DNA from: a virus
IMG/VR virus record: IMGVR_UViG_3300036774_000031
Span: 1-43,113 of that record
Direction: 5' to 3' (one strand)
Length of the DNA: 43,113 nt
Below are positions 1 to 43,113 of this stretch, one piece after another (the first letter of the stretch is position 1; every line of letters starts with the position of its first letter). The notes below the pieces were generated by a model, which was not told the origin of the DNA, made no database searches, and saw nothing but the letters and a program-made list of their open reading frames with translations. Made by a program: the position numbers and the translations under genes.

Positions 1-123
1 ATACTAAGGCACTCGCCAAGCAGGTGTTCACGATCTCCTTTGTCTGGACTGCCACGCCGATTGACGCTGCAGATGCTTGGATCGTCGACATCATGCAGGG
101 AAGCCTGGCGCCTGAGGCCGCGG
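1..123. repeat. Terminal direct repeat, left copy (identical to 42991-43113)
   Basis: Read directly: the first 123 bases equal the last 123 bases. This implies a circular or terminally redundant complete genome of 42,990 unique bp. Confidence 0.95.
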
Positions 124-10038: not shown

Positions 10039-10542
10039 TGGGATCGACGATCCTCAATGCAGCCGATATCCCCCTGAACTTCAAACAGGGGACTATTCCA
10101 GACGTTGGCGGCGCACTGAAGGATTGGTTCCAGGCGATGACGTTCACGCAGGTTCAAAAGCAGACGGTCGGCTTCCAGGTGCTCGAGATCGGCGTCGACA
10201 CGAATTTTTGGGGCGTGATCCAGCCGCTCAAACCACAAGCCTTGGCGATCAAGCCAGAGGGCCAGCGGTCGTGGACTTGGCTGCAACTTCATGCCGATCC
10301 ATCCTTGACACTTTTAACCGATGAAGTCGTGACCTATAATGGCGTGCAAACCCGCGTCATGGCACGTCGAGATTATACAATTTATGGATATGTCGAATAC
10401 GAACTTGTCCAAGATTGGACAGATTCGGGTCCGTCGACCTCGCCAGCGATTTACGACGGCGGAAATGCCTATACAATGGACTGGGAAATCAACCTCGACG
10501 GCGGCAATGCGTTCGTGACCGGAAGCCAGGTTGATGGAGGAA

Positions 10543-10559
<17 letters not shown>
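10038..10559 (+). CDS. Head-tail joining / neck protein (putative)
   Basis: 173 aa, GTG start overlapping the previous stop. Assignment is by position and a loose resemblance to head-tail joining proteins only. Confidence 0.4.
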
Positions 10560-14133
<3,574 letters not shown>

Positions 14134-29771: not shown

Positions 29772-30245
29772 ATGGCGCCGACGTTCATTCGCGACGGGGA
29801 CATCACTCACCTTTATCCGCCATTTACACAGGCAGTGCGCGATGCCCTAATGACGCTGAGCGCCACAGGATTCGACATCTTTGTGTTCGAGGGTCTCAGG
29901 TCCTTCGATCAGCAGGCATTGCGGTATGCCCAAGGCCGGACGACGCCAGGATCCATCATCACGCGCGCCAGACCGGGATATTCGTGGCATCAATATGGCT
30001 GCGCCGTTGACCTGGTATTTGGCGGCGACGGCAAATGGTCGTGGTCTGGGAATTATGACGGGGTTGAGCGCATCATGCGCGTCAAAGGATTCGAGTCGCT
30101 GTCGTTCGAGCGCCCGCATTTTCAGATGACGTTCGGCCTGGACATTGACGAGGCGTTCACGCTCAATGCATCTGGCGGTCTGCCGGCCGTCTGGGGTCGT
30201 CTGGATCAACTACGGCGAGGACCTAAGGCGACGCCGTTGACCTGA
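29772..30245 (+). CDS. Endolysin, peptidase M15 (VanY / L-Ala-D-Glu peptidase type)
   Basis: GLRSFDQQ...YSWHQYGCAVDL...ERPHFQM matches the zinc-ligand pattern of M15 peptidases. AAAGGAG SD. Confidence 0.8.
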   Translation: MAPTFIRDGDITHLYPPFTQAVRDALMTLSATGFDIFVFEGLRSFDQQALRYAQGRTTPGSIITRARPGYSWHQYGCAVDLVFGGDGKWSWSGNYDGVERIMRVKGFESLSFERPHFQMTFGLDIDEAFTLNASGGLPAVWGRLDQLRRGPKATPLT

Positions 30246-30251
30246 TATTAG

Positions 30252-30524
30252 TCATTTCCCGCCCTTAATCTTGGCGAGGGCGGCGCGGGCTATCTCACCA
30301 TCTGATTCAGAACATTGTTCATATCCGTAATAGTTGAGCGCCTCCACGGCCACCGCCAGTCGGGCTTCTGCCTTTGCGAGTTTGGCGCACTCGGCAAATA
30401 ATGGCGCGAGTATTTCATTGATTGCTGCGGCATCTATGCGGCAATTGGCGATAACATCGCGTGTGTGTTTTGTATGGGCTAAGGCATTGATGATGCGCTC
30501 TGCGTAACTAAGAGTTACCTTCAT
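30252..30524 (-). CDS. Hypothetical helical protein (90 aa), last gene of the leftward operon
   Basis: ORF with a GGGGGCGGGG SD-like stretch upstream. Convergent with the endolysin, 6 nt apart. Confidence 0.55.
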   Translation of the reverse strand: MKVTLSYAERIINALAHTKHTRDVIANCRIDAAAINEILAPLFAECAKLAKAEARLAVAVEALNYYGYEQCSESDGEIARAALAKIKGGK

Positions 30525-30795
30525 CCCCGCCCCCGTTCACGCACGCGGCCCAGGCGTCTAATGCATCGCATAGGTCTACGTAGCAATTGGTGAGGGAGTC
30601 CTCATCTTCTATGGCTTGTCGTGTTTTGTCGGCGGCCTCAATCACGTCAAGCGCGGCGGCGGACGATGCATACAGATAATCCTTATAGTCCGCAAGATAG
30701 ACCCCATTACCCCAGTTTGCTTTTAGCTCCCGCGCCAGCTCAAGCGCCTTGGATATGTCTGCGCTCATGGCTTTTTCTTCAGACAATTTTTGCAT
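30508..30795 (-). CDS. Hypothetical acidic helical protein (95 aa from ATG 30795)
   Basis: GGAGA lies 8 nt upstream of ATG 30795. The ORF-track start at 30864 (TTG) is less likely. An internal MSADISKA is paralogous to the next ORF's N-terminus. Confidence 0.5.
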   Translation of the reverse strand: MQKLSEEKAMSADISKALELARELKANWGNGVYLADYKDYLYASSAAALDVIEAADKTRQAIEDEDSLTNCYVDLCDALDAWAACVNGGGDEGNS

Positions 30796-30892
30796 GTAAC
30801 ATGTCTCCAAATATTTGATGCTTTCGACACCCAAATACGGCCACAGATTGCAGAAATCCCCCAAGCGGACGGGTTTTTGGAGAAGTGCGTTA

Positions 30893-31015
30893 TCATCTTA
30901 TCCCCTCCAGTTTCGCCTGTAGCGCGGCGAGAGCTTTTTCAACATTCAGCCATCCCTCACTCCAGAATAGATTATGGTCCCCGCCTCCGTTCACGGCCTT
31001 GGATATGTCGGTCAT
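30893..31015 (-). CDS. 40-aa micro-ORF built largely from copies of neighbouring gene ends
   Basis: Hand translation: MTDISKAVNGGGDHNLFWSEGWLNVEKALAALQAKLEGIR. ATGA overlap with the upstream ORF. Below the 60-aa cutoff of the ORF track. Confidence 0.4.
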   Translation of the reverse strand: MTDISKAVNGGGDHNLFWSEGWLNVEKALAALQAKLEGIR

Positions 31016-31182
31016 GGTTCTTTCCCCGAACCATCACAGCGTTCACAAATTTCTGTTGCTACATTGTTTTTGCGACCATTATCCATAAGCCAGCCCATCA
31101 CAAGACTCATGCCGACGGTTACAACGGCAAATAGGCGGTCAATTACATATCCTTTACCATCGCAGCGTTTGCAGTCGGTCAT
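31012..31182 (-). CDS. 56-aa protein with two DnaJ-type CXXCXGXG zinc-finger motifs flanking a hydrophobic segment
   Basis: Hand translation: MTDCKRCDGKGYVIDRLFAVVTVGMSLVMGWLMDNGRKNNVATEICERCDGSGKEP. ATGA overlaps at both ends. Confidence 0.55.
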   Translation of the reverse strand: MTDCKRCDGKGYVIDRLFAVVTVGMSLVMGWLMDNGRKNNVATEICERCDGSGKEP

Positions 31183-31577
31183 AGCTCTATCTCCGAAAGT
31201 TTCGCCTGTAGCGAGGCGAGGGCTTTATTCAGTGGCTCAAAATGTTGTGCAAACATTCCTTTCAGCCAACTCTGATGGTCAAGGTCGCCATGCAACGACG
31301 CTAGAAGCAGTGGTATCTCGACATGGGACGCCTCTTTCGCCACGGCTACAAGCTCGTCCGCACAGTTGCGGAGAAGGGCGATGCCATCCATATTAGGACT
31401 GCCTTTCGCCGCTGGCACAAGTATTCCCTTTTCTTCATGTCGCGTTTCTGCATTGGCTAGGATGATGTTGCGCCCACCGTGGTCGGCAACAAGAACATCA
31501 TTGCCGCCGAAATTGCGCCATCTCCATGGTTCCGGATACATCCCCGCAATCGCCGCTGAGAGATCGTCTAAGGTCAT
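31179..31577 (-). CDS. Hypothetical protein (132 aa), loosely Ead/Ea22-like
   Basis: PWRW...GNDVLVAD.GGR.I...NMDGIALLRNCADELVAV resembles a recurring phage early-protein motif. Weak. Confidence 0.5.
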   Translation of the reverse strand: MTLDDLSAAIAGMYPEPWRWRNFGGNDVLVADHGGRNIILANAETRHEEKGILVPAAKGSPNMDGIALLRNCADELVAVAKEASHVEIPLLLASLHGDLDHQSWLKGMFAQHFEPLNKALASLQAKLSEIEL

Positions 31578-32185
31578 TCGCCTATCTCCTCGATCATTGC
31601 TATGAGGCGCTTGATTTGAGCATCCCCGGCAGCATCCCAGGCAACATTCCTGGCAGCAGCACTGGCAGCAGCCCTGGCAGCAGCACTGGCAGCAGCCCTG
31701 GCAGCAGCCCCGGCAGCATCCCAGGCAACATTCCTGGCAGCATCACCGGCAGCATTCCAGGCAGCATTCCAGGCAGCATTCCAGGCAGCATCCCAGGCAG
31801 CCTCCCTGGCAGCATCACCGGCAGCATTCCAGGCAGCAGCCCAGGCAGCCTCCCTGGCAGCAGCCAACTCCTCTGCCGTCGCTTCGCCATTCGCAAAACG
31901 CTCTGCCACATCACAAGCGGCAACGCTTCTAGGATCAGCATCTTTGACTAATTTCAATGCCTCGCGCGCGCACCATACCGCGAATAGCCTGTTAATTTTG
32001 TCGCTCAAAAATCTTGAAACAACCCACAGTTTGTCTTGGGGCGAAGGGCCATCTAGTTTCAGAATGTCTACGACTGTGCCGGTCCAACCCTCGCTGATGA
32101 ATTTCGCTGGATCATAACAAGGCGACAAGGCGCGAATGTCAGCAATGGTGCGGGTTTTTAGCTTCGCTAGGTCGTCTAAGGTCAT
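31574..32185 (-). CDS. AAW(D/N)AA tetrapeptide-repeat protein (Imm5-like helical N-domain plus ~80-aa repeat array)
   Basis: 203 aa. The N-domain ...RLFAVWCAREALKLVKDADPRSVAACDVAERFANGEATAEEL... is followed by AAWAAAWNAAGDAAREAAWDAAWNAAWNAAWNAAGDAARNVAWDAAGAAARAAASAAARAAASAAARNVAWDAAGDA. Confidence 0.65.
   Translation of the reverse strand: MTLDDLAKLKTRTIADIRALSPCYDPAKFISEGWTGTVVDILKLDGPSPQDKLWVVSRFLSDKINRLFAVWCAREALKLVKDADPRSVAACDVAERFANGEATAEELAAAREAAWAAAWNAAGDAAREAAWDAAWNAAWNAAWNAAGDAARNVAWDAAGAAARAAASAAARAAASAAARNVAWDAAGDAQIKRLIAMIEEIGE
31624..31866. repeat. 12-bp-period imperfect tandem repeat (GGCAGCATYCCA-type) inside the AAW-repeat gene
   Basis: Read directly. All three frames on both strands stay open across it. 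Confidence 0.85.
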
Positions 32186-32376
32186 CCTTCCCCCTCCTTC
32201 TCGCCGAAAGTGGCCAAGATCCGGTGGGCCATCGCCAATGCTTCGTCTGGGCTAAGGGACATGGCGCTAGGCGCCCAAAATTTCCCTTCACTATCTACAT
32301 AGGCTTTTCCCAGCCTTGCCTCGAACGGCCTCGGCGACATTTTTACAAGCGCCGCGTACTCTGATGCGAGGCTCAT
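32182..32376 (-). CDS. Hypothetical protein (64 aa)
   Basis: ATGA-coupled at both ends within the leftward operon. Confidence 0.5.
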   Translation of the reverse strand: MSLASEYAALVKMSPRPFEARLGKAYVDSEGKFWAPSAMSLSPDEALAMAHRILATFGEKEGEG

Positions 32377-32558
32377 GTTTCACGTACTCCGATAATTATT
32401 TCATTGGGATCGCGCGGTTCATATGGCGACACATTTATTAATGATCCATTTTCGTCAACCCAAATTGATTGACCATATAACAACAAATCCCGTTGATATC
32501 TTTCCAAGTCACCTTGCAAAAATAATCGTGCCTCGATTTCTTCGACTGTGATTTTCAA
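32373..32558 (-). CDS. Hypothetical protein (61 aa from TTG 32558; the ORF extends to 32717)
   Basis: The C-terminal part KITVEEIEARLFLQGDLERYQRDLLLYGQSIWVDENGSLINV looks coding. The N-terminal part of the long ORF is Arg/His-rich and overlaps a zinc-ribbon ORF in another frame. A TTGA overlap with that ORF is proposed. Confidence 0.4.
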   Translation of the reverse strand: MKITVEEIEARLFLQGDLERYQRDLLLYGQSIWVDENGSLINVSPYEPRDPNEIIIGVRET

Positions 32559-32779
32559 TGCACCCGTCCGCGTCCGGCGCCCATGCGCGGTTGATATTTC
32601 TTGACCTTTGATGATGCGATGATTTCGGCACATGTGTCGCATCGTTCGATGTCCAGCCATCGCACTTGTCCCACCATGTCGCGCCGGCACCCGTATGCCA
32701 GCCAGCATTGCGGACAAACCTTTGTATGGCCAGTGTCGGCATATCCCCTAACCCTTGCTCGTTCGTCGACGTCGGTCAC
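32555..32779 (-). CDS. Small zinc-ribbon protein (74 aa)
   Basis: CPQC...(21 aa)...CDTC. The GTG start overlaps the upstream stop (GTGA). Confidence 0.5.
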   Translation of the reverse strand: MTDVDERARVRGYADTGHTKVCPQCWLAYGCRRDMVGQVRWLDIERCDTCAEIIASSKVKKYQPRMGAGRGRVH

Positions 32780-33000
32780 GTTGTCCCTTTCTTATATTCT
32801 GAAATGTAAAACTGATCGCCGCATTGTGCGCAGATGATAGCTGTGCCGGCCGGAAACGGCGCATGATGATGCGTGTACTGCACTTGGCAATACGGGCACC
32901 ATGCCAGCCAATATTCGAACTGTCGGACGATCTGATAAATCCGCCGCTCCGGTGGTTTGAAGTCCGGCCCGACGGATTGGATTGGGCGCTTGCGTTTCAT
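32776..33000 (-). CDS. Small zinc-ribbon protein (74 aa)
   Basis: CPYC...(21 aa)...CAQC. Basic N-terminus MKRKRP. Confidence 0.55.
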   Translation of the reverse strand: MKRKRPIQSVGPDFKPPERRIYQIVRQFEYWLAWCPYCQVQYTHHHAPFPAGTAIICAQCGDQFYISEYKKGTT

Positions 33001-33254
33001 TGTTGGCGCAGTCGCTCCATCACATCATCATATGGTTTCTGTCTGATCACATCCTCGTTCTGTTGCCTGAGTTCGATTTCTGGCAGGCATAGATTGACGA
33101 CTTGTTGATTATAGCGTGCAGCCAAATGGATCAATTCATTCGACCACGTCAAATGATCGTCGTTTGACATATCGTCCGCCAGCCGATCAGCAATGGCGAT
33201 AAGCGATGCCCTGATTTTGGCTTGGGTCGTGATGGATATCATTTTATTTTCCAT
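32997..33254 (-). CDS. Hypothetical helical protein (85 aa from ATG 33254, or 81 aa from 33242)
   Basis: MENKMISITTQAKIRASLIAIADRLADD... looks coding. The upstream VTVPVT part of the track ORF is an open alternative frame of the hexanucleotide repeat. Confidence 0.5.
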   Translation of the reverse strand: MENKMISITTQAKIRASLIAIADRLADDMSNDDHLTWSNELIHLAARYNQQVVNLCLPEIELRQQNEDVIRQKPYDDVMERLRQQ

Positions 33255-33273
33255 TGAGTAAATTTTTTTGGTG

Positions 33274-33618
33274 TCAACCGTAACCGGAACCGTCACCGTA
33301 ACCGTAACCGGAACCGTCACCGTAACCGTAACCGGAACCGTCACCGTAACCGGAACCGTCACCGTAACCGTCACCGTAACCGTTACCGTCACCGGAACCG
33401 GAACCGGAACCGTTACCGTTACCGTCACCGTCACCGGAACCGTTACCGTCACCGGAACCGGAACCGGAACCGTTACCGTTACCGTCACCGTAACCGTAAC
33501 CGGAACCGTCACCGTCACCGTAACCGGAACCGTCACCGTAACCGGAACCGGAACCGTAACCGTAACCGGAACCGTAACCGTAACCGGAACCGTAACCGTC
33601 AATCGTTATTGTTGCCAT
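33274..33618 (-). CDS. (Gly-X)n low-complexity protein, 114 aa: MATITID followed by 107 residues of strictly alternating G-[Y/S/D/N]
   Basis: ATG 33618 overlaps the upstream gene's end by 13 nt. The frame stops exactly at the end of the repeat (TGA 33274-76). 17 Tyr lie in the two flanks; the centre is N/S/D-only. Confidence 0.5.
   Translation of the reverse strand: MATITIDGYGSGYGYGSGYGYGSGSGYGDGSGYGDGDGSGYGYGDGNGNGSGSGSGDGNGSGDGDGNGNGSGSGSGDGNGYGDGYGDGSGYGDGSGYGYGDGSGYGYGDGSGYG
33277..33600. repeat. ~54 tandem hexanucleotide units (GGAACC/GTAACC/GTCACC/GTTACC on the plus strand)
   Basis: Read directly. Open in three listed ORF-track frames. Confidence 0.9.
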
Positions 33619-33929
33619 ACTGGCACCGCCTCGATTGATGCGCGGGCTTTCGCCGTCACATCGATGATTTCGATTGTTTGCAGCAATTCGACGCGGTCGA
33701 CGGCACATGGGAATTTGCATTGATTTGGTTGCGATGTTCCATCTGTTGCCAATTGCGACAATGATGCGGCGCCAGCCCAATACCAGATGCGTCGCGCATT
33801 GCGCAATACGACTTCCTGTCCTTTGCGTGATTCGAGTTCGCCGGCAAACACGCCCGCCGAGTACGTCCGTGCGATCACATACTTTTTTGATGTCGATTTC
33901 TTTGCTGGTTTCTTCTTTGTCTTTTTCAC
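33606..33929 (-). CDS. Conserved phage protein of unknown function (107 aa, K-rich N-terminus)
   Basis: ARTYSAGVFAGEL...NARRIWYWAGAASLSQLA is a motif I recall from many phage genomes. Function unknown. Confidence 0.6.
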   Translation of the reverse strand: MKKTKKKPAKKSTSKKYVIARTYSAGVFAGELESRKGQEVVLRNARRIWYWAGAASLSQLATDGTSQPNQCKFPCAVDRVELLQTIEIIDVTAKARASIEAVPVWQQ

Positions 33930-33932
33930 GAT

Positions 33933-34505
33933 TCACTCCTTTGTTTGGTTTGACAATACATCCGTGATGGCAATGATCTGATCAGCCATATGTTCGGTTT
34001 GCTGTTTCACATATTGAATTGTTCGATACGATGATCCACGCATATGTTCGTATTTTTGCATATACGGACTCACATCATTGCAATGTCCGCAATCAAATCC
34101 GAAAAACCATAACGATGGATCTGATGATGCGAAATGCGGTGACGCGAAAGTTATGCCACCGTGAACGTCGACAATTTTATCCATCGTGGGGTCGTTGAAA
34201 TGTTCGCCGCATAGTAATTGAAGCATAACGGCCATTGATGGGTGCTCGCCAATCGGTTGTTCTTTTCGTTTTTCCCACATGGCGCGCAGTGATTCAATTC
34301 TGTCACTATATTGAATCCCGTGTAATGGGTTGCTTTTTGGCACACCGACATATGCACACCAGTGCAATAGCGTGGAATGGCGAACGGCCAAACACAACAA
34401 TCCCTTATATGTCCACTCTTCATAATCCGATTCGGAATCCCATGACCCTCCTTGATAATTAAGTTTTTCTTTTTTGGTTCGTTCCAAATAATCATTCGGT
34501 ATCAT
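33933..34505 (-). CDS. Conserved phage protein of unknown function (190 aa)
   Basis: VHGGITF...WFFGFDCGHCND is a motif recurrent in phage early proteins. No function known to me. Confidence 0.6.
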   Translation of the reverse strand: MIPNDYLERTKKEKLNYQGGSWDSESDYEEWTYKGLLCLAVRHSTLLHWCAYVGVPKSNPLHGIQYSDRIESLRAMWEKRKEQPIGEHPSMAVMLQLLCGEHFNDPTMDKIVDVHGGITFASPHFASSDPSLWFFGFDCGHCNDVSPYMQKYEHMRGSSYRTIQYVKQQTEHMADQIIAITDVLSNQTKE

Positions 34506-35515
34506 TTATTCGGTTCCCATGCTGACAGCCGATCCGCCGCGGCGATGATTTGGTTTGGCGTGGCGTTGTTGCGACCGGATATCAATAAGGCGAATTGTTC
34601 CGGTGTCAGTCCGAGGATTTCGGCCGATATACCGCCTGCCTTTAAAACACCGGCGGCTGCCTTTTCTAGTTCGGCGATTGCATTTTTGCGGTCCGCTGCC
34701 GTGTGAACAATGTCACCCGCCATCGGCGCATCTTCGCCTGCCAACAACGCATCGCGCTTGGATGGATCCGGCATCGCCGGCATCACCTCATAATTCATAT
34801 CGATCACCTTGGCATTCTGCTGCTCCTCATCCTCGTCGATGGCAATGGCATCGCGTATTTCAATCGATGTTGGCAGCATCTTGAACAGCCGGCGCACGAT
34901 TGTTTTTTTGGCCATTTCATCAAATGCCGTGGTCCATGGCGATGTTCGCGGGCTATTTTTGAATCCGCTCGAATATGTGTCGCGGATGTGTTCGACGTCG
35001 CCTTTGCTCATCACGTCAAATTGGATGCCGCCATCTTTGAGTTTGGCGACGGCGTAAACGAATGCGAGTTCCTGTGACTTGAATTTGGGATGATGGACAA
35101 TCTTGCTTTCGGTGCCGAGTTCGATTTCAAATACGTCGCCGTCGTAAACGCACCGCGCCTCAATCGACACGATGTTGCCGCTGCGCCGCGCCAAGTCAAC
35201 CATGCCGCGGTAACCGAGTTGCAGTTGGACCTCGCGGCCGTACGGAATCAGATAGCAATGACCTAATGCGCCGCCTGGTTCCAACCCCAACTGTGATGCC
35301 TTGACGACCGATCCGAAGAACGACATGGCGTCGCATTGCATCAACTTCGGCGTATTGCGGAGTTCCGTCAATGCCACGCGCATCATGCGATCGGTTGACA
35401 CATGTTTCGGCAGCGCGTCCTCGATGGCCTTGCGGTGCGTCCTGAATACGTCAAGGACTTCGGTAACCATCTTTGGCGGCGGCGGCGCTTTCGTGATTTG
35501 ATTTGGGGCGTTCAT
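34502..35515 (-). CDS. recT: RecT-family single-strand annealing recombinase
   Basis: LRNTPKLMQCDAMSFFGSVVKASQLGLEPGGALGHCYLIPYGREVQLQLGYRGMVDLARRSG is the classic RecT core. Confidence 0.9.
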   Translation of the reverse strand: MNAPNQITKAPPPPKMVTEVLDVFRTHRKAIEDALPKHVSTDRMMRVALTELRNTPKLMQCDAMSFFGSVVKASQLGLEPGGALGHCYLIPYGREVQLQLGYRGMVDLARRSGNIVSIEARCVYDGDVFEIELGTESKIVHHPKFKSQELAFVYAVAKLKDGGIQFDVMSKGDVEHIRDTYSSGFKNSPRTSPWTTAFDEMAKKTIVRRLFKMLPTSIEIRDAIAIDEDEEQQNAKVIDMNYEVMPAMPDPSKRDALLAGEDAPMAGDIVHTAADRKNAIAELEKAAAGVLKAGGISAEILGLTPEQFALLISGRNNATPNQIIAAADRLSAWEPNK

Positions 35516-35745
35516 TTTGGATCCCTATTCAATGCGTTAATTAATGCATCTGCTATCTCTACTGCTGCGCGGGTAGCGGTGAGAGTCGACCGCACCGGGC
35601 TTGCCGCCATCAATCCGCACAATATTTGTGCGGCAAAATATTCGCGTTTTGATAGACCTGATGCCTTGTGATGATACTCGGTTTCCGGCATGGTGAATGC
35701 CGGTTCGTCGGGCACGCATTCGTTGTCCTTGATTTCATCATCCAT
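35512..35745 (-). CDS. Hypothetical protein (77 aa from ATG 35745)
   Basis: ATGGATGA overlap with the upstream stop. MDDEIKDNECVPDEPAF...LSKREYFAAQILCGLMA. Confidence 0.5.
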   Translation of the reverse strand: MDDEIKDNECVPDEPAFTMPETEYHHKASGLSKREYFAAQILCGLMAASPVRSTLTATRAAVEIADALINALNRDPK

Positions 35746-36388
35746 TGGTTTTGCCTTTCTTTTTCTTTTCCAATTGTTCAGGGACCAGGACCGGAAATTC
35801 AACCCAATTGCCGCGCGTGATCTGCGCCGGCAAGACACCTTCCTTCAAATCGCCAGACAGCAAGTCGGCTTTGATCTTAGCGGCATCCCATCGATATTCG
35901 CGGATCATCTGCACATAATTGGGATGCTCGACGAAATCTTGGGGCGATGCCGGCCGTGTCATCTCCATTGCTGGCGGTGACGTCCGCAGACGCGCCGAGA
36001 ACATGTTACCGGGGATCTTTTCGATGTGCTGCATTGCCATTGTTTCGGCGACATACTTTTTCAGCCGTCCTTGGTTGGCGCCGATGGCGCGCGCCTTCTC
36101 CAGCAATGGTTTGGCGCACCCGCGCAGGTATGCCTCGACGTTTTCCATCCTGTCGATCACGGATTTAATGGCGTCGACCTTATCGCGGATCTGTCCAATC
36201 AGTTGCGCCGGATCAAAATTGGGGTCCTCGAGAAGTTCATCCGACCGGACGAGTTGCGCGACAAGATCTTGAAACGTGGGCGCTGGAATTTGTTGCATCG
36301 GCGGCCCTTCCCACGCGGCCCTTTCAGGTGCAACGGCGCCAGATGCCGGCGTTGGCAATTGATTTCCTACGGGGGCGGTTGTGATCAT
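35738..36388 (-). CDS. Siphovirus Gp157-like protein (recombination-module partner)
   Basis: 216 aa, helical. The pattern IDRMENVEAYLRGCAKPLLEKARAIG...LKKYVAETM...F.ARLRTSPPAMEM resembles Sipho_Gp157. Adjacent to recT, as in many phages. Confidence 0.55.
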   Translation of the reverse strand: MITTAPVGNQLPTPASGAVAPERAAWEGPPMQQIPAPTFQDLVAQLVRSDELLEDPNFDPAQLIGQIRDKVDAIKSVIDRMENVEAYLRGCAKPLLEKARAIGANQGRLKKYVAETMAMQHIEKIPGNMFSARLRTSPPAMEMTRPASPQDFVEHPNYVQMIREYRWDAAKIKADLLSGDLKEGVLPAQITRGNWVEFPVLVPEQLEKKKKGKTNG

Positions 36389-36555
36389 GACGATCCTTTC
36401 GGAAGTTGAATGATGGATGGATTCTGAATATGCTGCATCAACAGCAGTCGCACATACGCCACGACAGACAGACGCGCTTCGCGCGCCATCTTTCGCAGTT
36501 CGTCCATCTCGAATGGGTCGAGATCGACTTGGAGCATTAGTCGGCTTGGATTCAT
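36385..36555 (-). CDS. Ribbon-helix-helix (CopG/Arc-like) protein, first gene of the leftward operon
   Basis: ATG 36555 with a GAGG SD. MNPSRLMLQVDLDPFEMDELRKMAREARLSVVAYVRLLLMQHI fits a beta-strand plus two helices. Confidence 0.6.
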   Translation of the reverse strand: MNPSRLMLQVDLDPFEMDELRKMAREARLSVVAYVRLLLMQHIQNPSIIQLPKGSS

Positions 36556-36646
36556 GGTCGCCTCATATTTATGATCAAGGTAAAATCGATGGCAATCATA
36601 TATATTTTTCACAGGAAATAAACAGTAAAATAAAGGATCGCTTGAC
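36556..36646. promoter_or_regulatory. AT-rich divergent intergenic region between the leftward (RHH...) and rightward (HNH...) operons
   Basis: This is the transcription switch point by gene orientation. Candidate leftward promoter: TTGCCA-17nt-ATAAAT. No experimental support. Confidence 0.4.
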
Positions 36647-36961
36647 ATGATCCCACATGCGAAAATACGTAATGCTGTCAGGAAGTTGTGGCTTTGGTCG
36701 CCAGAACGGACTGCGGCCATGCGGGCGGCACGGCGCGGACGCGGACTTTACCTTTGCGCCATATGTCGCCAGACGCTCCGGACTCGAGATTTCAAGCCTG
36801 AAGTCGACCATATTGTGCCGGTTGGCCCGACGCCCGGCAGCCAGCGCGATCCCCACGGCGATTGGACGGCCTGGATGGCGCGGATGTTCGTCGACCAGAC
36901 TGGCCTCAGGGTCCTGTGTCCTCAGTGCCATCTGGGTTTGAAGGCGGTCGGCAAAAAATAG
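36647..36961 (+). CDS. Small HNH endonuclease
   Basis: CAICRQ...EVDHIVPV...RVLCPQCH is the HNH pattern. AAGGA SD. Confidence 0.75.
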   Translation: MIPHAKIRNAVRKLWLWSPERTAAMRAARRGRGLYLCAICRQTLRTRDFKPEVDHIVPVGPTPGSQRDPHGDWTAWMARMFVDQTGLRVLCPQCHLGLKAVGKK

Positions 36962-37021
36962 TTTATAAAAGTCCATATCTGGATATATGATGTCCCATCG
37001 ATAATCAACGGCAGGGCATAT

Positions 37022-37225
37022 ATGCAGCAGCAGACGGCGGACGATCCGTTGCTCACGCCACGCGAAGCGGCAAAACTTCTCGGCGTTAGTACGCATCAAT
37101 TGTGGAAATACGGGCGGTTGAAAAAATTTCGGGTCGTCAAATTATCGCGGCGAATGGTGCGATATCCGCGGTCTGAGATCCTGGCATTCATTCAACGTGG
37201 GATGGGTGATGCATGTGGATCATAA
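37022..37225 (+). CDS. Excisionase/AlpA-type HTH (HTH_17) DNA-binding protein
   Basis: LLTPREAAKLLGVSTHQLWKYGRLKKF..VKLSRRMVRYPRSEILAFI. Confidence 0.7.
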   Translation: MQQQTADDPLLTPREAAKLLGVSTHQLWKYGRLKKFRVVKLSRRMVRYPRSEILAFIQRGMGDACGS

Positions 37226-38016
37226 TCAATAAATGGGACAAGTTTAATCCCCGCAAGGACCTCAAAACCTCATCATGGTTTCGACTTGAGAACAACTTTT
37301 TGACGCATCCATCCCTTTGGGACCTCTCGAGTGATGGCAAAATGGTGTGGATCGGTCTGCTATGTGATGCATCGCGTCGACAAAGTTCGTGCATCGAAGC
37401 AAATTCTAAATTGTTGGCAGCCTTGCTTAAAACAACAGCATCTGTTGTCGAAGATGCATTTAGTGCCCTTCAAGATGCCGATATGATTGAAATACACACG
37501 TCACGTCCACGTAACGTCCGCGTCACGTCCGCGTCACGTCCACGTAACGCACGCGTAACACGCTGGCGCCCTACGGACATAACGGACGAACATAACGGAC
37601 GAGACGAACGAACGAACAAGACTTCCGCCGATCCCGGCGTAGGTTTCGTGGATCCAGGTAATGATCTAATCTTGGCGACCGCTTGGCTGGAGTATGCCAA
37701 GGCCGAGATGCCGTGGCGGACTGACGACAAGTCTTGGAGCCCCCAGGTGTTCGCCGCCGATCTAGCGCAGGTCCAAAAAAAGTGTGGCCTCACCGACGAG
37801 GGGATGATGCGCGTTCTCGAATTCATTCGCGCTGACGATTTCTGGCACGACAAGGCGTGCAATCCCAAAGGACTTCTCGGCAAATCAAAAAACGGTCAAC
37901 GCAAAATCGACAACATTTTAGTGCGAATGAAATCCGATTCGAAATCAAGTTCGGCATCAACGGCGGAAGCAATTCAGCGGTGGGCCGATTCACGTTCAAC
38001 CCAAGGAGATCCGTAA
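37213..38016 (+). CDS. Putative replication initiator / replisome organiser carrying internal iterons
   Basis: N-terminal W.KF...WFRLENNFL...LS.DGKMVWIGLL resembles phage replication-organiser N-domains. An iteron array lies inside the linker region. Confidence 0.5.
   Translation: MWIIINKWDKFNPRKDLKTSSWFRLENNFLTHPSLWDLSSDGKMVWIGLLCDASRRQSSCIEANSKLLAALLKTTASVVEDAFSALQDADMIEIHTSRPRNVRVTSASRPRNARVTRWRPTDITDEHNGRDERTNKTSADPGVGFVDPGNDLILATAWLEYAKAEMPWRTDDKSWSPQVFAADLAQVQKKCGLTDEGMMRVLEFIRADDFWHDKACNPKGLLGKSKNGQRKIDNILVRMKSDSKSSSASTAEAIQRWADSRSTQGDP
37497..37562. repeat. Six tandem 11-bp iterons (consensus CRCGTMACGYM), putative origin of replication
   Basis: The units are CACGTCACGTC, CACGTAACGTC, CGCGTCACGTC, CGCGTCACGTC, CACGTAACGCA and CGCGTAACACG. 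They are followed by 2 x ACATAACGGACGA (37576-37601) and an (ACGAA)3 tract. Confidence 0.6.
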
Positions 38017-39932: not shown

Positions 39933-40081
39933 TTGATGTATCGGCAACGACGTTCCGTGTATTTGAAGGATCGATTGTATTTTGGTGCATTACATGTTGT
40001 TGGGCAATTGGAAAAATCATGAAAAGCATCAAAAAATTAGAATCCCTTGCCAACATCGATAAAATGGTAATTCCAAAATGA
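39929..40081 (+). CDS. Small hydrophobic Cys-rich protein (50 aa)
   Basis: Hand translation: MIDVSATTFRVFEGSIVFWCITCCWAIGKIMKSIKKLESLANIDKMVIPK. ATGA overlaps at both ends. Confidence 0.4.
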   Translation: MIDVSATTFRVFEGSIVFWCITCCWAIGKIMKSIKKLESLANIDKMVIPK

Positions 40082-41286
40082 ACGAATTCCAGCCCGACAC
40101 AGTAATGCGCGATATCGATACGATCACGCCGTATGCAAAAAATACAAAGCTGCATCCTGACGAGCAAATCGCCAAACTCGCATCCATGATCGCCGAATTC
40201 GGATGGGATCAGCCGATTGTTATCGACAAGGACGGCATCATCATAAAAGGTCACGGACGCAGATTGGCGGCGCTGCGACTCAACTTGAAACAAGTGCCGG
40301 TTGTGGTCCGGACCGATCTAAGCAAGGCGCAAGTGATGGCCGCACGGATCGCGGATAATCGCGTGGCGGAAAGCGGATGGGATACATCGCTGCTTAGTAT
40401 GGAGTTCTCTGAACTGAAAGATATGGAATTCGATCTTGATTTGCTGGGTTTTGATGCCGATGAACTCGATAAAATTCTTGAACCAACACAAGCCGGCACA
40501 GACGGATTGACTGACCCTGACGCCATACCAGAGAAAGTCGATACTAGATGCAAACCAGGCGATATTTGGATTCTCGGCAATCATCGCGTGATGTGCGGCG
40601 ACTCGACGAATGTGCAGCATGTTGAAAGACTGATGGCGGGCGAGAAGGCGGATATGGTGTTCACCGATCCGCCGTATGGGATCGACCTTGATACCGATCT
40701 CAGCAATATCAAAGCAGAGTTGAAGGGCTGGAAGGGGGCGGGCGGCAAATACAGCAAGGTCATTGGCGACGATGAACCCTATGACCCAGGGTTTATCCTA
40801 GGACTATTTCAAGATGTACCTGAGATATTCCTTTGGGGTGCTGATTATTACGCTGAAAGACTTATAGGAAAAAATGATGGTTGCTGGTTTGCTTGGGATA
40901 AAACAACAAATGAAGGCGGCGGATCAGTCTCTTGGAATTTGGGCTCAATGTTTGAGCTCTGCTGGAGTAAGAGCAAGCACAAGCGAGAAGTCGTCCGCAA
41001 GTTATGGGCCGGTTTATATGGCACCGAAACCCAAGACGTGAGAAGTCGAATCCACCCAACACAAAAACCAAACGAACTATGCCAATGGTTTATCAATAAA
41101 TTCAGCAAGGATGGGCAACTAGTCGTCGACCTATTCCTCGGCTCCGGCTCCACGCTCATCGCCTGCGAGAAGACCGGACGCCGCTGTTTCGGTATGGAAA
41201 TAGATCCTCACTACTGCGACGTGATCCTGAAACGATGGGAAGATTTTACGGGCAAACAGGCGGAGCGTGAACTGGATGCCGCGTGA
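40078..41286 (+). CDS. ParB-like nuclease domain fused to an N6/N4 DNA methyltransferase (beta-class)
   Basis: N-terminal ITPYAKNTKLHPDEQI...IIKGHGRRLAA (ParB/Srx fold). Motif IV VFTDPPYG. Motif I VVDLFLGSGSTLIACEKTGRRCFGMEID at the C-terminus. Confidence 0.85.
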   Translation: MNEFQPDTVMRDIDTITPYAKNTKLHPDEQIAKLASMIAEFGWDQPIVIDKDGIIIKGHGRRLAALRLNLKQVPVVVRTDLSKAQVMAARIADNRVAESGWDTSLLSMEFSELKDMEFDLDLLGFDADELDKILEPTQAGTDGLTDPDAIPEKVDTRCKPGDIWILGNHRVMCGDSTNVQHVERLMAGEKADMVFTDPPYGIDLDTDLSNIKAELKGWKGAGGKYSKVIGDDEPYDPGFILGLFQDVPEIFLWGADYYAERLIGKNDGCWFAWDKTTNEGGGSVSWNLGSMFELCWSKSKHKREVVRKLWAGLYGTETQDVRSRIHPTQKPNELCQWFINKFSKDGQLVVDLFLGSGSTLIACEKTGRRCFGMEIDPHYCDVILKRWEDFTGKQAERELDAA

Positions 41287-42563: not shown

Positions 42564-43113
42564 ATGAATCACATCATATCGATCATGATCGTTTTGAACG
42601 CCGGTATCCTCGCTTGCGGCACGCCAGCGCAACAGAAGGCCCGTGAGAAGGCTGTGCAAAATGCCTACAATAGTCCGGCCAATGGCGGAACGGGCACATC
42701 GACGGGCACTAGCGCCGCGACCTCAACCCAGACGGCCGCCGCGACCTCAACCCAGACGGCCGCCGCGACCTCAACCCAGACGGCCGCCGCGACCTCAACC
42801 CAGACGGCCGCCACGACCGCGCCAGCACCGTCAGGACCGACATCCTGCACCGCCACAGCATCGACGCCAGCAACCGGTATGGGAACGACCTGGCAGTATG
42901 ATCCGACACTCAGGACGTGGGCAGCAGCCAAGGCAGCGGCACCGACCGGATGGCACCTCGCGACCCGCGCTGAGGTCCTCAACCTGTTCGATACTAAGGC
43001 ACTCGCCAAGCAGGTGTTCACGATCTCCTTTGTCTGGACTGCCACGCCGATTGACGCTGCAGATGCTTGGATCGTCGACATCATGCAGGGAAGCCTGGCG
43101 CCTGAGGCCGCGG
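42564..43113 (+). CDS. Lipoprotein with AAATSTQT tandem repeats and a DUF1566 (Lcl C-terminal)-like domain; runs off the window end and finishes at 161
   Basis: AAGGAG SD. The signal peptide MNHIISIMIVLNAGILAC has a lipobox. C-terminal GWHLATRAEVLNLF...FVWTATP...AWIVDIMQG resembles DUF1566. There is no stop before 43113. Confidence 0.65.
   Translation, partial: MNHIISIMIVLNAGILACGTPAQQKAREKAVQNAYNSPANGGTGTSTGTSAATSTQTAAATSTQTAAATSTQTAAATSTQTAATTAPAPSGPTSCTATASTPATGMGTTWQYDPTLRTWAAAKAAAPTGWHLATRAEVLNLFDTKALAKQVFTISFVWTATPIDAADAWIVDIMQGSLAPEAA
42714..42806. repeat. Perfect 24-bp tandem repeat x ~4 (GCCGCCGCGACCTCAACCCAGACG)
   Basis: Read directly. Encodes AAATSTQT repeats in the lipoprotein linker. 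Confidence 0.9.
42991..43113. repeat. Terminal direct repeat, right copy (identical to 1-123)
   Basis: Read directly. Confidence 0.95.

What the first reader, a model, noticed from the sequence alone, without database searches (positions are those of the whole stretch)
33274..33618. Hexanucleotide repeat array encoding a strictly alternating (Gly-X)n protein with [G/S]Y[G/S]-rich flanks
About 54 tandem 6-bp units keep three frames open.

Only one frame has all of these properties:
- An ATG (33618) overlapping the upstream gene's end.
- A 7-aa non-repeat head (MATITID).
- A stop exactly at the repeat's end.

That frame gives 107 residues of G-[Y/S/D/N]. It has 17 Tyr confined to both flanks and a Tyr-free N/S/D core (GDGNGNGSGSGSGDGNGSGDGDGNGNGSGSGSGDGNG).

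The [G/S]Y[G/S] density resembles eukaryotic low-complexity domains that form condensates or hydrogels. The GD/GN core resembles Ca-binding or antifreeze-like repeats. In a phage early operon this could be a condensate-forming or decoy protein. Alternatively the DNA repeat itself could be the functional element.
Basis: partly seen in the sequence, partly recalled or inferred. Interest (0 to 1): 0.7.

Follow-up and report, generated by a model that had tools for sequence, protein, structure and literature searches.

The report
Conserved phage Gly-X repeat protein gene
The hexanucleotide array is a real phage gene, found in many phages, that encodes a floppy, acidic, tyrosine-rich protein in which every second residue is glycine; it is always paired with, and sometimes fused to, a small uncharacterised barrel protein (DUF6948), and nobody has studied what the pair does.

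Summary
There are 54 tandem 6-bp units at 33276-33599. The minus-strand ORF 33618→33274 gives MATITID followed by 107 residues of strictly alternating G-[Y/S/D/N].

Comparative data settle the reading frame. In 91 of 95 related loci, a (G-X)n ORF follows the DUF6948 gene. The glycine codon differs between phages (GGC, GGT, GGA or GGG), so the other frames read AM, AT, TV and so on. Only G-[Ser/Tyr/Asp] is conserved.

In 59 of 92 loci the start codon sits 13 nt inside the end of DUF6948, built on its invariant Trp codon. That overlap explains most of the "non-repeat head".

More than 25 proteins fuse DUF6948 and the repeat in one chain, in either order. Array length and unit order vary between contigs whose DUF6948 is identical.

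The product is acidic (net charge -14.5) and is predicted to be disordered. DUF6948 is basic and weakly Sm-like.

The best reading is a detachable low-complexity tail for a small β-barrel protein that probably binds nucleic acid. The pair forms a two-gene early-region module. The mechanism (tuning of the partner or assembly into condensates) is inferred, not shown.

A DNA-level function and the alternative frames are rejected. The Ca-binding and antifreeze resemblances are not supported. I found no literature on this module.

The parts
33274..33618 (-). GX gene: ATG 33618 to stop TGA 33274-33276. The product is 114 aa, MATITID + (G-[Y/S/D/N])x53 + G. pI 4.05, net charge -14.5.
   Evidence: The frame is conserved in 91 of 95 related loci. 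AF2 pLDDT is 36 with no secondary structure.
33276..33599 (-). Hexanucleotide array of 54 units. On the coding strand the units are GGTTAC x17, GGTTCC x17, GGTGAC x13 and GGTAAC x6, plus edge units.
   Evidence: TRF; unit census.
33379..33489 (-). Tyr-free core, residues 44-80. It is a tandem duplication of a 20-residue (60-nt) block; GDGNGNGSGSGSGDGNG occurs at residues 44 and 64.
33606..33929 (-). Partner gene: DUF6948 (PF22253), 107 aa, GTG start. It has a Lys-rich N-terminal tail and a basic small β-barrel core with a weak Sm-like fold match.
   Evidence: Pfam E = 3.8e-33. AF2 pLDDT 87. Foldseek against PDB gives Sm/LSm hits at E = 6e-3 to 3e-2, TM-score normalised by target length (TMt) 0.65-0.70. 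Median pI of 120 homologues is 9.35.
33606..33618 (-). 13-nt overlap, ATGGCAACAATAA. The GX start codon is made of the last base of the Val codon plus the TG of the invariant Trp codon of DUF6948. The overlap ends at the DUF6948 stop, TAA.
   Evidence: The same 13-nt overlap occurs in 59 of 92 loci.
33629..33632 (-). Shine-Dalgarno-like GAGG, 10 nt upstream of the GX ATG, embedded in DUF6948 codons.
   Evidence: SD-like 4-mers lie at -17 to -5 in 59% of 88 loci, against 13% of control positions.

Best explanation
The array is the coding sequence of a real phage gene found in many phages. It encodes a ~10 kDa protein that is predicted to be disordered and is strongly acidic. Gly alternates with Tyr, Ser or Asp.

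The gene is translated from its own start codon, which is embedded 13 nt inside the end of the upstream DUF6948 gene, so expression of the two genes is coupled. Together they form a self-contained two-gene module. Here it sits in the early leftward operon with RecT and a Gp157/Gam-like gene.

DUF6948 is a basic small β-barrel with an Sm-like topology and a Lys-rich tail. It is probably an oligomeric nucleic-acid-binding protein. The Gly-X protein is its low-complexity tail, encoded as a separate chain here and in most phages. In about 5% of relatives the tail is covalently fused at either end of DUF6948.

The proposed mechanism is inferred, not shown. The acidic, aromatic-studded tail associates with the basic partner. 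There it either competes with nucleic acid for the basic surface, as the acidic C-terminal tails of Hfq or SSB do, or it supplies multivalent Tyr "stickers" that drive higher-order, condensate-like assembly.

Selection acts on composition (Gly, aromatic, Ser, acidic, never basic), not on order or length. Order and length turn over quickly by replication slippage.
For: Shown by tool results:
- **Frame.** In 88 arrays the G-X frame is kept, while the dominant Gly codon is GGC in 76 loci, GGT in 16, GGA in 8 and GGG in 2. The +1 frame therefore reads AM, AT, AP, TV or AL, and the +2 frame reads LR, LW or FR.
- **Amino-acid-level selection.** Ser is encoded by TCN in most loci but by AGY in L020, L028, L043, L059 and L105. 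The dominant aromatic residue is Tyr in 78 arrays, Phe in 4 and Trp in 1.
- **Composition.** Pooled X residues are S 35.7%, Y 27.9% and D 22.1%. The median basic fraction is 0 and acidic residues are never absent. Net charge has a median of -9.5 and is never positive.
- **Linkage to DUF6948.**
  - 91 of 95 loci with enough downstream sequence have the repeat ORF after DUF6948, at 45-82% DUF6948 identity.
  - The pair is also present in five cultured or named phages: Ralstonia phage NK-7, Iodobacter phage phiPLPE, Pectobacterium phage Ymer, Vibrio phage IKEMa6-1 and Chlorobiaceae phage CV-1-33.
  - Genes flanking the pair are not conserved.
- **Start site.** The 13-nt overlap at the invariant Trp occurs in 59 of 92 loci. 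SD-like motifs are enriched 59% against 13%.
- **Fusions.**
  - More than 25 distinct proteins carry DUF6948-GX or GX-DUF6948 in one chain.
  - 7 of the 150 best representatives of clusters at 50% identity are fused.
  - phrog_18306 models a fused architecture.
- **Disorder and charge complementarity.** AF2 pLDDT of the repeat protein is 36. DUF6948 has a median pI of 9.35 and Lys-rich tails.
- **Rapid turnover.** Arrays of 81 and 51 aa, and of 21 and 105 aa, sit next to 100%-identical DUF6948 proteins.
- **Partner fold.** Sm/LSm proteins are the top Foldseek hits against PDB.
- **Modularity.** The same repeat is attached to unrelated small domains such as DUF7666 and a TIGR02996-like head.
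Against: - No experiment or expression data exist.
- No physical interaction between the two proteins is shown. I could not run a complex prediction.
- The Sm-like assignment is weak: Foldseek E is about 1e-2, the TM-score normalised by query length (TMq) is about 0.47, and there is no sequence-level match to PDB. Nucleic-acid binding is therefore an inference from fold, charge and neighbourhood.
- The AF2 run on the repeat used a single sequence, which often gives low confidence anyway.
- Some fusions in metagenomic data could be frameshift errors. P0429 looks like one.
- Some length variation could be assembly collapse. Six of ten short-read contigs break inside the array.
- Aromatic residues are not more evenly spaced than in shuffles (mean z -0.25), which gives no extra support for a tuned sticker-spacer design.
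- The high negative charge argues against phase separation of the repeat protein on its own.
Confidence: 0.45

Rival explanations
1. Anti-defence decoy or sponge. The acidic, flexible, Tyr/Ser-rich chain mimics nucleic acid or acts as a bait substrate. It soaks up a host defence protein such as a nuclease, kinase or other DNA-binding factor. DUF6948 would be a helper or an unrelated co-transcribed gene.
For: - The pair is a portable two-gene cassette set among variable flanking genes in the early region, as is typical of accessory or counter-defence genes.
- Arrays are hypervariable next to identical DUF6948 proteins, which could reflect an arms race.
- The chain has a strong negative charge and never carries basic residues.
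Against: - Hypervariability is equally well explained by slippage under composition-only selection.
- Known DNA mimics are folded proteins with patterned charge; this chain is not.
- Repeated fusion to DUF6948 in both orders argues that the primary partner is DUF6948, not a host target.
- No defence or anti-defence family was matched. The PADLOC library was not searched.
Confidence: 0.17
2. Self-sufficient condensate or hydrogel scaffold. This is the first reader's idea: the protein phase-separates on its own through [G/S]Y[G/S] contacts, as FUS-type low-complexity domains do.
For: - There are 17 [G/S]Y[G/S] triplets in 107 residues, and Tyr is 15% of the protein.
- The chain is predicted disordered.
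- The aromatic fraction is conserved (median 31% of X), with Phe or Trp replacing Tyr in some lineages.
Against: - Net charge of -14.5 and 12% Asp with no cations should oppose self-association.
- There is no Gln and little Asn family-wide.
- Aromatic spacing is not more even than in shuffles.
- Two arrays have almost no aromatic residues (L011 and L027).
- The obligate DUF6948 linkage is left unexplained.
Confidence: 0.13
3. Silk-like or amyloid β-sheet former. Strict Gly-X alternation puts all side chains on one face of a strand, as in fibroin (GAGAGS/GAGAGY), and so builds fibres.
For: - Alternation is strict over 107 residues.
- The Ralstonia phage NK-7 homologue was automatically named "fibroin heavy chain-like protein".
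Against: - Ala is only 0.6% of X, and Asp at 22% would put like charges face to face.
- AF2 predicts no strands.
- The protein is cytoplasmic, short and variable in length.
Confidence: 0.05
4. The repeat works as DNA or RNA (recombination hotspot, origin, structured RNA), or another frame is the gene. The candidate other frame is the TTG-started 201-aa V-T/V-P frame, 33602→32997, which runs into the downstream ORF.
For: - Four of the six frames are open across the array.
- The V-T frame is continuous with the downstream 85-aa ORF.
- The Chlorobiaceae phage CV-1-33 record annotates the A-M/A-L frame.
Against: - The DNA unit differs between phages at the positions that are synonymous in the G-X frame. 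The alternative-frame peptides therefore change identity completely (AM, AT, AP, TV, AL...).
- The +2 frame has stops in 40 of 88 arrays.
- The downstream gene is not conserved next to the array.
- There is no Rfam match.
- There is no second copy of the array that could serve as a DGR template.
Confidence: 0.02
5. Functionless passenger: a slippage-generated ORF that is tolerated but does nothing.
For: - Length and order are unconstrained.
- In L112 the ORF has shrunk to 21 aa.
Against: - The ORF is present in 91 of 95 loci, and in cultured phages whose DUF6948 is only about 45-50% identical.
- Composition is maintained through different codons.
- The start site and SD are conserved.
- Fusions to DUF6948 are retained.
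Confidence: 0.03

Closest known systems
Acinetobacter baumannii Hfq: Sm core plus a long disordered C-terminal domain of GGFGGQ repeats ending in an acidic tip (PMC11617691)
   Same: Both combine a small Sm-type β-barrel with a long, glycine-rich, aromatic-containing, redundant repeat tail that has acidic character. In Hfq, repeat number matters for RNA binding, autoregulation and fitness. The DUF6948 partner here gives Sm/LSm proteins as its best structural matches, and some relatives carry the tail fused C-terminally.
   Different: - There is no sequence homology.
- The fold match is weak.
- The tail here is a separate, translationally coupled polypeptide in about 95% of relatives.
- The repeat is a strict dipeptide alternation (G-X) with Tyr, Ser and Asp, not GGFGGQ.
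- Acidic residues are spread along the chain instead of forming a tip.
- It is phage-encoded.
FUS-family prion-like low-complexity domains ([G/S]Y[G/S] repeats). From my own knowledge of the field.
   Same: Both have a high density of [G/S]Y[G/S] triplets, about 15% Tyr, Gly/Ser spacers and predicted disorder.
   Different: - The chain is strongly acidic (12% Asp, net charge -14.5).
- It has no Gln.
- It alternates Gly strictly.
- It is bacterial-virus encoded and only about 30-160 aa long.
- No even aromatic patterning was detected.
- Phase behaviour is untested.
Eukaryotic SmD1/SmD3 C-terminal (Gly-Arg)n tails. From my own knowledge.
   Same: Both involve an Sm-fold protein carrying a strictly alternating Gly-X dipeptide repeat tail.
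   Different: X is Arg (basic and methylated) there, and Tyr, Ser or Asp (acidic) here. The two are unrelated in sequence, and the tail is encoded in trans here.
Bombyx-type silk fibroin heavy-chain crystalline repeats (GAGAGS/GAGAGY). From my own knowledge. This is the source of the automatic name "fibroin heavy chain-like protein" on the Ralstonia phage NK-7 homologue XCO36015.1.
   Same: Both alternate Gly-X strictly, with Ser and Tyr among the X residues.
   Different: There is almost no Ala, Asp is 22% of X, the protein is short and cytoplasmic, and no β-structure is predicted.
Sulfur globule proteins SgpA/B (Pfam PF17228)
   Same: They are Gly/Tyr-rich repetitive bacterial proteins. One fused relative (P0130) gives a weak hit at E = 0.0032.
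   Different: The hit is below the Pfam threshold. The window protein gives no hit at all. Sgp proteins are exported structural proteins (my own knowledge); this protein has only a 7-residue head and no signal peptide.

Membership tests
DUF6948 (PF22253), for the upstream partner gene 33606-33929 | Match to the Pfam model above its gathering score | tested here: met
   E = 3.8e-33, 113.9 bits against a cut-off of 27, covering model positions 1-85 of 85.
DUF6948-linked Gly-X repeat ORFs (an operational family defined in this report) | The ORF lies immediately downstream of DUF6948, and its start codon overlaps the conserved C-terminal Trp codon. | tested here: met
   The window has the 13-nt overlap, as do 59 of 92 loci.
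DUF6948-linked Gly-X repeat ORFs (an operational family defined in this report) | About 40-50% Gly in alternation; X residues dominated by aromatic, Ser and acidic residues; no basic residues; stop soon after the repeat. | tested here: met
   Window protein: G 47%, Y 15%, S 15%, D 12%, no K or R. Family medians: aromatic 0.31, S/T/N 0.39, acidic 0.24, basic 0.
FUS-type prion-like low-complexity domain | Dense [G/S]Y[G/S] triplets | tested here: met
   17 triplets in 107 residues.
FUS-type prion-like low-complexity domain | Uncharged polar composition (S/G/Q/N/Y) with very few charged residues | tested here: not met
   14 Asp, net charge -14.5, no Gln.
FUS-type prion-like low-complexity domain | Aromatic residues spaced more evenly than by chance | tested here: inconclusive
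   In 61 arrays the coefficient of variation of aromatic gaps, compared with shuffles, gives mean z -0.25, with 59% of arrays below 0.
FUS-type prion-like low-complexity domain | Reversible phase separation or hydrogel formation | not testable with these tools
   Needs purified protein.
Sm/LSm/Hfq fold (for DUF6948) | Five-stranded bent β-barrel superimposable on Sm proteins | tested here: inconclusive
   AF2 model pLDDT 87. The top 50 Foldseek hits against PDB are nearly all Sm/LSm proteins, but E is 6e-3 to 3e-2, TMq (normalised by query length) about 0.47 and TMt (normalised by target length) 0.65-0.70. In the model a helix lies between strands 3 and 4, and there is no N-terminal helix.
Sm/LSm/Hfq fold (for DUF6948) | Sequence-level similarity to Sm proteins (Sm1/Sm2 motifs) | tested here: not met
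   There is no Pfam LSM hit. A profile search against PDB sequences finds nothing below E = 0.36.
Sm/LSm/Hfq fold (for DUF6948) | Ring oligomer that binds RNA | not testable with these tools
   No multimer prediction or assay was available.
Silk fibroin crystalline repeat | Strict Gly-X alternation | tested here: met
Silk fibroin crystalline repeat | X is mainly Ala or Ser, allowing sheet stacking | tested here: not met
   Ala is 0.6% and Asp 22.1% of X residues. No strands are predicted.
RTX calcium-binding repeat | Nonapeptide GGXGXDXUX periodicity with a hydrophobic position | tested here: not met
   The period is 2 residues (6 nt), and there are no hydrophobic residues in the repeat.
Diversity-generating retroelement variable region | A second (template) copy of the repeat, and a reverse transcriptase nearby | tested here: not met
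   TRF finds only one such array in the 43-kb genome. None of the 20 neighbouring proteins scanned hits a reverse transcriptase. The whole genome was not scanned.
Sulfur globule protein (PF17228) | Pfam match above threshold | tested here: not met
   The window protein gives no hit. Relative P0130 scores 18.7 bits against a cut-off of 26.7.

The most novel reading that the evidence does not exclude
Many phages across diverse lineages carry a dedicated, stand-alone "designer" disordered polypeptide made only of Gly spacers, aromatic stickers, Ser and acidic residues. It is continually re-generated by slippage. Together with a ring-forming Sm-like partner (DUF6948), it builds a condensate or multivalent complex early in infection. 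That assembly organises recombination, replication or RNA control, or sequesters a host factor. This would be a compact, genetically tractable bacterial-virus model of sticker-spacer phase separation, with the low-complexity domain encoded as its own gene.
Probability: 0.2. Interest if true: 0.8.

Novelty: new variant of a known kind. Interest (0 to 1): 0.62.

Why it matters
DUF6948 is a large phage family. Neither the full-text library nor any database I searched gave it a function.

This work shows that DUF6948 comes as a pair with a Gly-X low-complexity protein. That protein is left unannotated in Iodobacter phage phiPLPE and annotated in the wrong frame in Chlorobiaceae phage CV-1-33.

The array also breaks short-read assemblies. 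Six of ten contigs carrying one identical DUF6948 protein ended inside it.

If the tail-in-trans or condensate reading is right, this gives three things:
- A minimal natural system for studying how composition alone (Gly, Tyr, Ser, Asp) encodes function in disordered proteins.
- A bacterial-virus parallel to the low-complexity tails of Sm and Hfq proteins.
- A practical annotation rule: after DUF6948, call the G-X frame from the start codon built on the Trp codon.

Cultured carriers make it testable. They are Ralstonia phage NK-7, Pectobacterium phages of the Ymer group, Iodobacter phage phiPLPE and Vibrio phage IKEMa6-1.

Tried and rejected
- Megablast of 30000-37000 against GenBank phages: no match.
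- The downstream 85-aa ORF as a synteny anchor in IMG/VR: no relatives. It is not part of the module.
- Exact look-ups of the Gly-X protein and of P0001: not on record.
- Pfam and PHROGs on the Gly-X protein: only a spurious sub-threshold low-complexity hit to TrAA12, and nothing in PHROGs.
- AF2 on the Gly-X protein: no structure.
- DUF6948 profile against PDB sequences: nothing.
- Foldseek against the viral library (BFVD): only DUF6948 or uncharacterised proteins.
- Even-spacing test for aromatic and acidic residues: no signal.
- A conserved third gene next to the pair: none. Flanking genes are mostly unknown small ORFs. The named ones are scattered RecT, ERF, AAA_24, YqaJ, DnaB, CI, Cro and CsrA hits.
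- The globular domain fused to a short GYG run in L087 and 21 other proteins: no Pfam, PHROG or PDB match.
- Literature searches for DUF6948, DUF7666, "fibroin heavy chain-like" with phage, and six repeat heptapeptides: nothing relevant.
- Rfam, tRNA and promoter/terminator scans: nothing bearing on the array.
- The head as a leader or recognition peptide: rejected. Its pattern M-[E/V/G/A/D]-x-[I/V/L]-[N/T/K] follows from the overlap with the Trp codon and stop codon of DUF6948.
- DGR and RiPP-precursor readings: rejected. There is no template copy, reverse transcriptase or modifying enzyme among the neighbours scanned.
- Host assignment: the genome scan returned only metagenome bins with inconsistent taxonomy, mostly phage-sized contigs. 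The host remains unknown.
Full report
**1. The observation**

Tandem Repeats Finder reports one array at 33276-33599, with period 6, 54.0 copies and score 396. Read on the minus strand, ATG 33618 opens a 114-codon ORF that ends at TGA 33274-33276. The product is MATITID followed by 107 residues in which every odd residue is Gly.

Its properties are:
- Composition G 54, Y 17, S 17, D 14, N 6.
- pI 4.05 and net charge -14.5.
- Tyr only at residues 9-43 and 81-113.
- 17 [G/S]Y[G/S] triplets.

- Four of the six frames, not three, lack stops across the array.
- The Tyr-free core is a local tandem duplication of a 20-residue block.
- Every Gly codon is GGT and every X codon ends in C, although the rest of the genome uses GGT for only 21% of Gly and TCC for 13% of Ser. 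The units are therefore young copies of one another, not a codon-usage effect.
- The "head" has a trivial explanation, given in section 3.

**2. Which frame is real**

The upstream gene (33606-33929, minus strand) is a DUF6948 protein (Pfam E = 3.8e-33). I used it as an anchor and fetched three sets of loci:
- 80 IMG/VR loci.
- 23 loci from genome bins.
- 7 loci from GenBank phages.

Of the 95 loci that have at least 150 nt after DUF6948, 91 carry a run of (G-X)≥6 starting within about 300 nt.

The decisive point is that the DNA unit is not conserved, while the peptide is:
- The dominant Gly codon is GGC in 76 loci, GGT in 16, GGA in 8 and GGG in 2.
- The other frames therefore read A-M, A-T, A-P, T-V or A-L in one register, and L-R, L-W or F-R in the other.
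- The G-X frame always reads Gly alternating with Ser (35.7% of X), Tyr (27.9%) and Asp (22.1%).

Selection acts at the amino-acid level:
- Ser is TCN in most arrays but AGY in L020, L028, L043, L059 and L105.
- The aromatic residue is Tyr in 78 arrays, Phe in 4 and Trp in 1.
- Basic residues are essentially absent, and acidic residues are never absent.

It rejects both the DNA-element idea and the 201-aa V-T frame that runs into the downstream ORF. That downstream ORF is not conserved next to the array.

**3. The start site and the head**

In 59 of 92 loci the Gly-X ORF starts exactly 13 nt before the DUF6948 stop. The start codon is formed by the last base of the codon before the invariant C-terminal Trp, plus the TG of TGG. 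It is ATG in most loci and GTG where that preceding base is G.

This forces the pattern of the head:
- Residue 2 takes a G-initial codon (E, V, G, A or D).
- Residue 4 takes an xTA or xTG codon read across the DUF6948 stop (I, V or L).
- Residue 5 takes an A- or G-initial codon.

That is the observed M-[E/V/G/A/D]-x-[I/V/L]-[N/T/K...] pattern. MATITID is therefore an overlap by-product, not a leader peptide.

A Shine-Dalgarno-like GAGG lies 10 nt upstream in the window, at 33629-33632. Similar 4-mers occur at -17 to -5 in 59% of loci, against 13% of control positions. The arrangement indicates independent but coupled translation.

**4. The partner and the fusions**

Searches with the Gly-X protein and with a fused relative returned more than 25 distinct proteins in which DUF6948 and the repeat are one chain:
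- **Tail at the C-terminus.** The repeat begins 2-3 residues after the VPVW motif. Examples are P0244, P0245, P0248, P0251 and P0338.
- **Tail at the N-terminus.** Examples are P0249, P0256, P0257, P0263 and P0328.

Among the best 150 representatives of clusters at 50% identity, 7 are fused. PHROG 18306 models a head-repeat-DUF6948 architecture, and the window's DUF6948 matches its last 90 positions.

N-terminal fusions cannot arise from a frameshift error in the usual gene order, so at least those are genuine. This gene fusion and fission is the strongest evidence that the two products act together.

Genes flanking the pair are not conserved. The few with names are recombination, replication or regulatory early genes: RecT, ERF, AAA_24, YqaJ, DnaB, CI, Cro and CsrA. 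In the window the pair sits in the leftward operon with RecT (34502-35515) and a Gp157/Gam-like gene.

**5. Physical nature**

AlphaFold2 gives the Gly-X protein pLDDT 36 and no secondary structure. This was a single-sequence run, so it is weak evidence, but it fits the composition.

DUF6948 models confidently (pLDDT 87) as a five-stranded small barrel with two helices. Its best PDB matches are almost all Sm/LSm proteins, but weakly so: E = 6e-3 to 3e-2, and TM-score normalised by target length (TMt) 0.65-0.70. There is no sequence-level link.

DUF6948 proteins are basic, with a median pI of 9.35, and often carry Lys-rich N-terminal tails. Their Gly-X partners have a median net charge of -9.5 and are never positive.

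**6. Rapid turnover**

Contigs encoding 100%-identical DUF6948 proteins carry different arrays:
- 81 aa in L113 and L116, against 51 aa in L122, with different first units in other samples.
- 21 aa in L112, against 105 aa in sibling contigs.

Six of ten short-read contigs end inside the array. Some of this variation may therefore be assembly artefact. Even so, arrays bounded on both sides differ in length.

Family-wide, lengths range from 31 to 158 aa with a median of 84. Order and length are thus free, while composition is held.

**7. Mechanism**

Shown:
- The gene is real and is read in the G-X frame.
- It is coupled to DUF6948 and recurrently fused to it.
- Its product is disordered, acidic and aromatic-rich, and only its composition is constrained.

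Inferred:
- The Gly-X chain is the low-complexity tail of DUF6948, usually supplied in trans.
- The tail either competes with nucleic acid for the basic barrel or provides multivalent Tyr contacts for higher-order assembly.

The closest documented analogue is Acinetobacter baumannii Hfq. Its Sm core carries a long disordered tail of redundant GGFGGQ repeats with an acidic tip, and repeat number affects RNA binding, autoregulation and fitness (PMC11617691). The (Gly-Arg)n tails of SmD1 and SmD3 and the acidic tails of SSB are further parallels, recalled from my own knowledge.

The same Gly-X module is also attached to unrelated small domains: DUF7666, a "GAC" domain, TIGR02996-like heads and an uncharacterised 150-aa domain. 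This suggests a generic physical module, not a specific binding site.

**8. Rivals**

- An anti-defence decoy remains possible (0.17).
- A self-sufficient FUS-like condensate also remains possible (0.13). The high negative charge, the lack of even aromatic spacing and the unexplained DUF6948 link weigh against it.
- Silk-like fibres, RTX or antifreeze-like repeats, a DGR target, a RiPP precursor and a functionless ORF are each disfavoured by specific tests. These are listed in the membership table and under rejected ideas.

**9. Novelty**

No paper in the searchable library mentions DUF6948, DUF7666 or the repeat peptides.

Database records treat the gene inconsistently:
- Ralstonia phage NK-7: "fibroin heavy chain-like protein".
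- Pectobacterium phage Ymer: "hypothetical protein".
- Chlorobiaceae phage CV-1-33: annotated in the wrong frame.
- Iodobacter phage phiPLPE: not annotated.

Low-complexity tails on small β-barrel proteins are a known kind of feature. A strictly alternating Gly-X tail, encoded as its own overlapping gene and present in many phages, is a new variant of that kind.

**10. Verdict**

The functional guesses are only partly supported. The main new fact is the DUF6948 partnership. Interest is 0.62.

Noticed in passing
window 31574-32185 (-), array 31619-31862: There is a second repeat protein three genes downstream in the same operon. A 12-bp array of 20 units encodes 4-residue repeats (AAWD, AAWN, AARE, AAGD, AARA, AASA) in a 203-aa protein that matches phrog_18326, of unknown function.
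   Followed up: partly
window 37497-37618 (+): Clusters of 11-bp (CACGTCACGTC-like) and 13-bp direct repeats lie inside the ORF 37213-38016. That ORF weakly matches a DnaD-like helicase loader (phrog_186, E = 1.5e-6). This looks like an iteron-type origin embedded in the replication gene.
   Followed up: no
window 42713-42818: A 24-bp unit is repeated 4.4 times at 98% identity (CGCCGCGACCTCAACCCAGACGGC). It overlaps the minus-strand ORF 42665-43084, where it reads (AAAVWVEV)n. Whether that ORF is real is unknown.
   Followed up: no
window 1-123 and 42991-43113: The window begins and ends with the same 123 bases. It is therefore a circularly closed assembly of a complete phage genome of about 42,990 bp.
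   Followed up: partly
L083 2264-2521 (Chlorobiaceae phage CV-1-33) and L084 1173-1409 (Iodobacter phage phiPLPE): In CV-1-33, gene_25 (QOE32032.1) is annotated in the A-M/A-L frame of the array; the conserved G-X ORF is not annotated. In phiPLPE, the G-X ORF lies in an unannotated gap between gp84 (DUF6948) and gp83.
   Followed up: yes
L113, L116, L122, L112 and L114-L121: Contigs with 100%-identical DUF6948 proteins carry arrays of 81, 51 or 21 aa. Six of ten short-read contigs stop inside the array, and one has a scaffold gap of Ns there. The repeat is both variable and an assembly breaker.
   Followed up: partly
L114 577-813, L117 577-813, L118 198-434, L120 508-744: A phage-encoded CsrA homologue (PF02599), an RNA-binding translational regulator, lies upstream of DUF6948 in one phage lineage, one to two genes away. 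CsrA also hit twice in the upstream-neighbour survey.
   Followed up: no
proteins P0124, P0126, P0140, P0190 (DUF7666); P0125 and L087 1761-2282; P0131; P0257, P0328: The same Gly-[Y/S/D/N] repeat is fused to several unrelated small domains of unknown function. These are DUF7666 (on either side), a ~150-aa domain found in 21 proteins, a domain with a "GAC" motif in 11 proteins, and TIGR02996-like heads.
   Followed up: partly
window 40078-41286 (+): A 402-aa protein combines a ParB N-terminal domain with an N6/N4 DNA methylase domain.
   Followed up: no
window 10980-11036 and 13787-13952, inside ORF 10531-14133 (+): There are short tandem repeats (9/27-bp, GCG x11, 24-bp and 18-bp) within a 1200-aa ORF. 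By size and position it is probably the tape-measure gene, but this was not checked.
   Followed up: no
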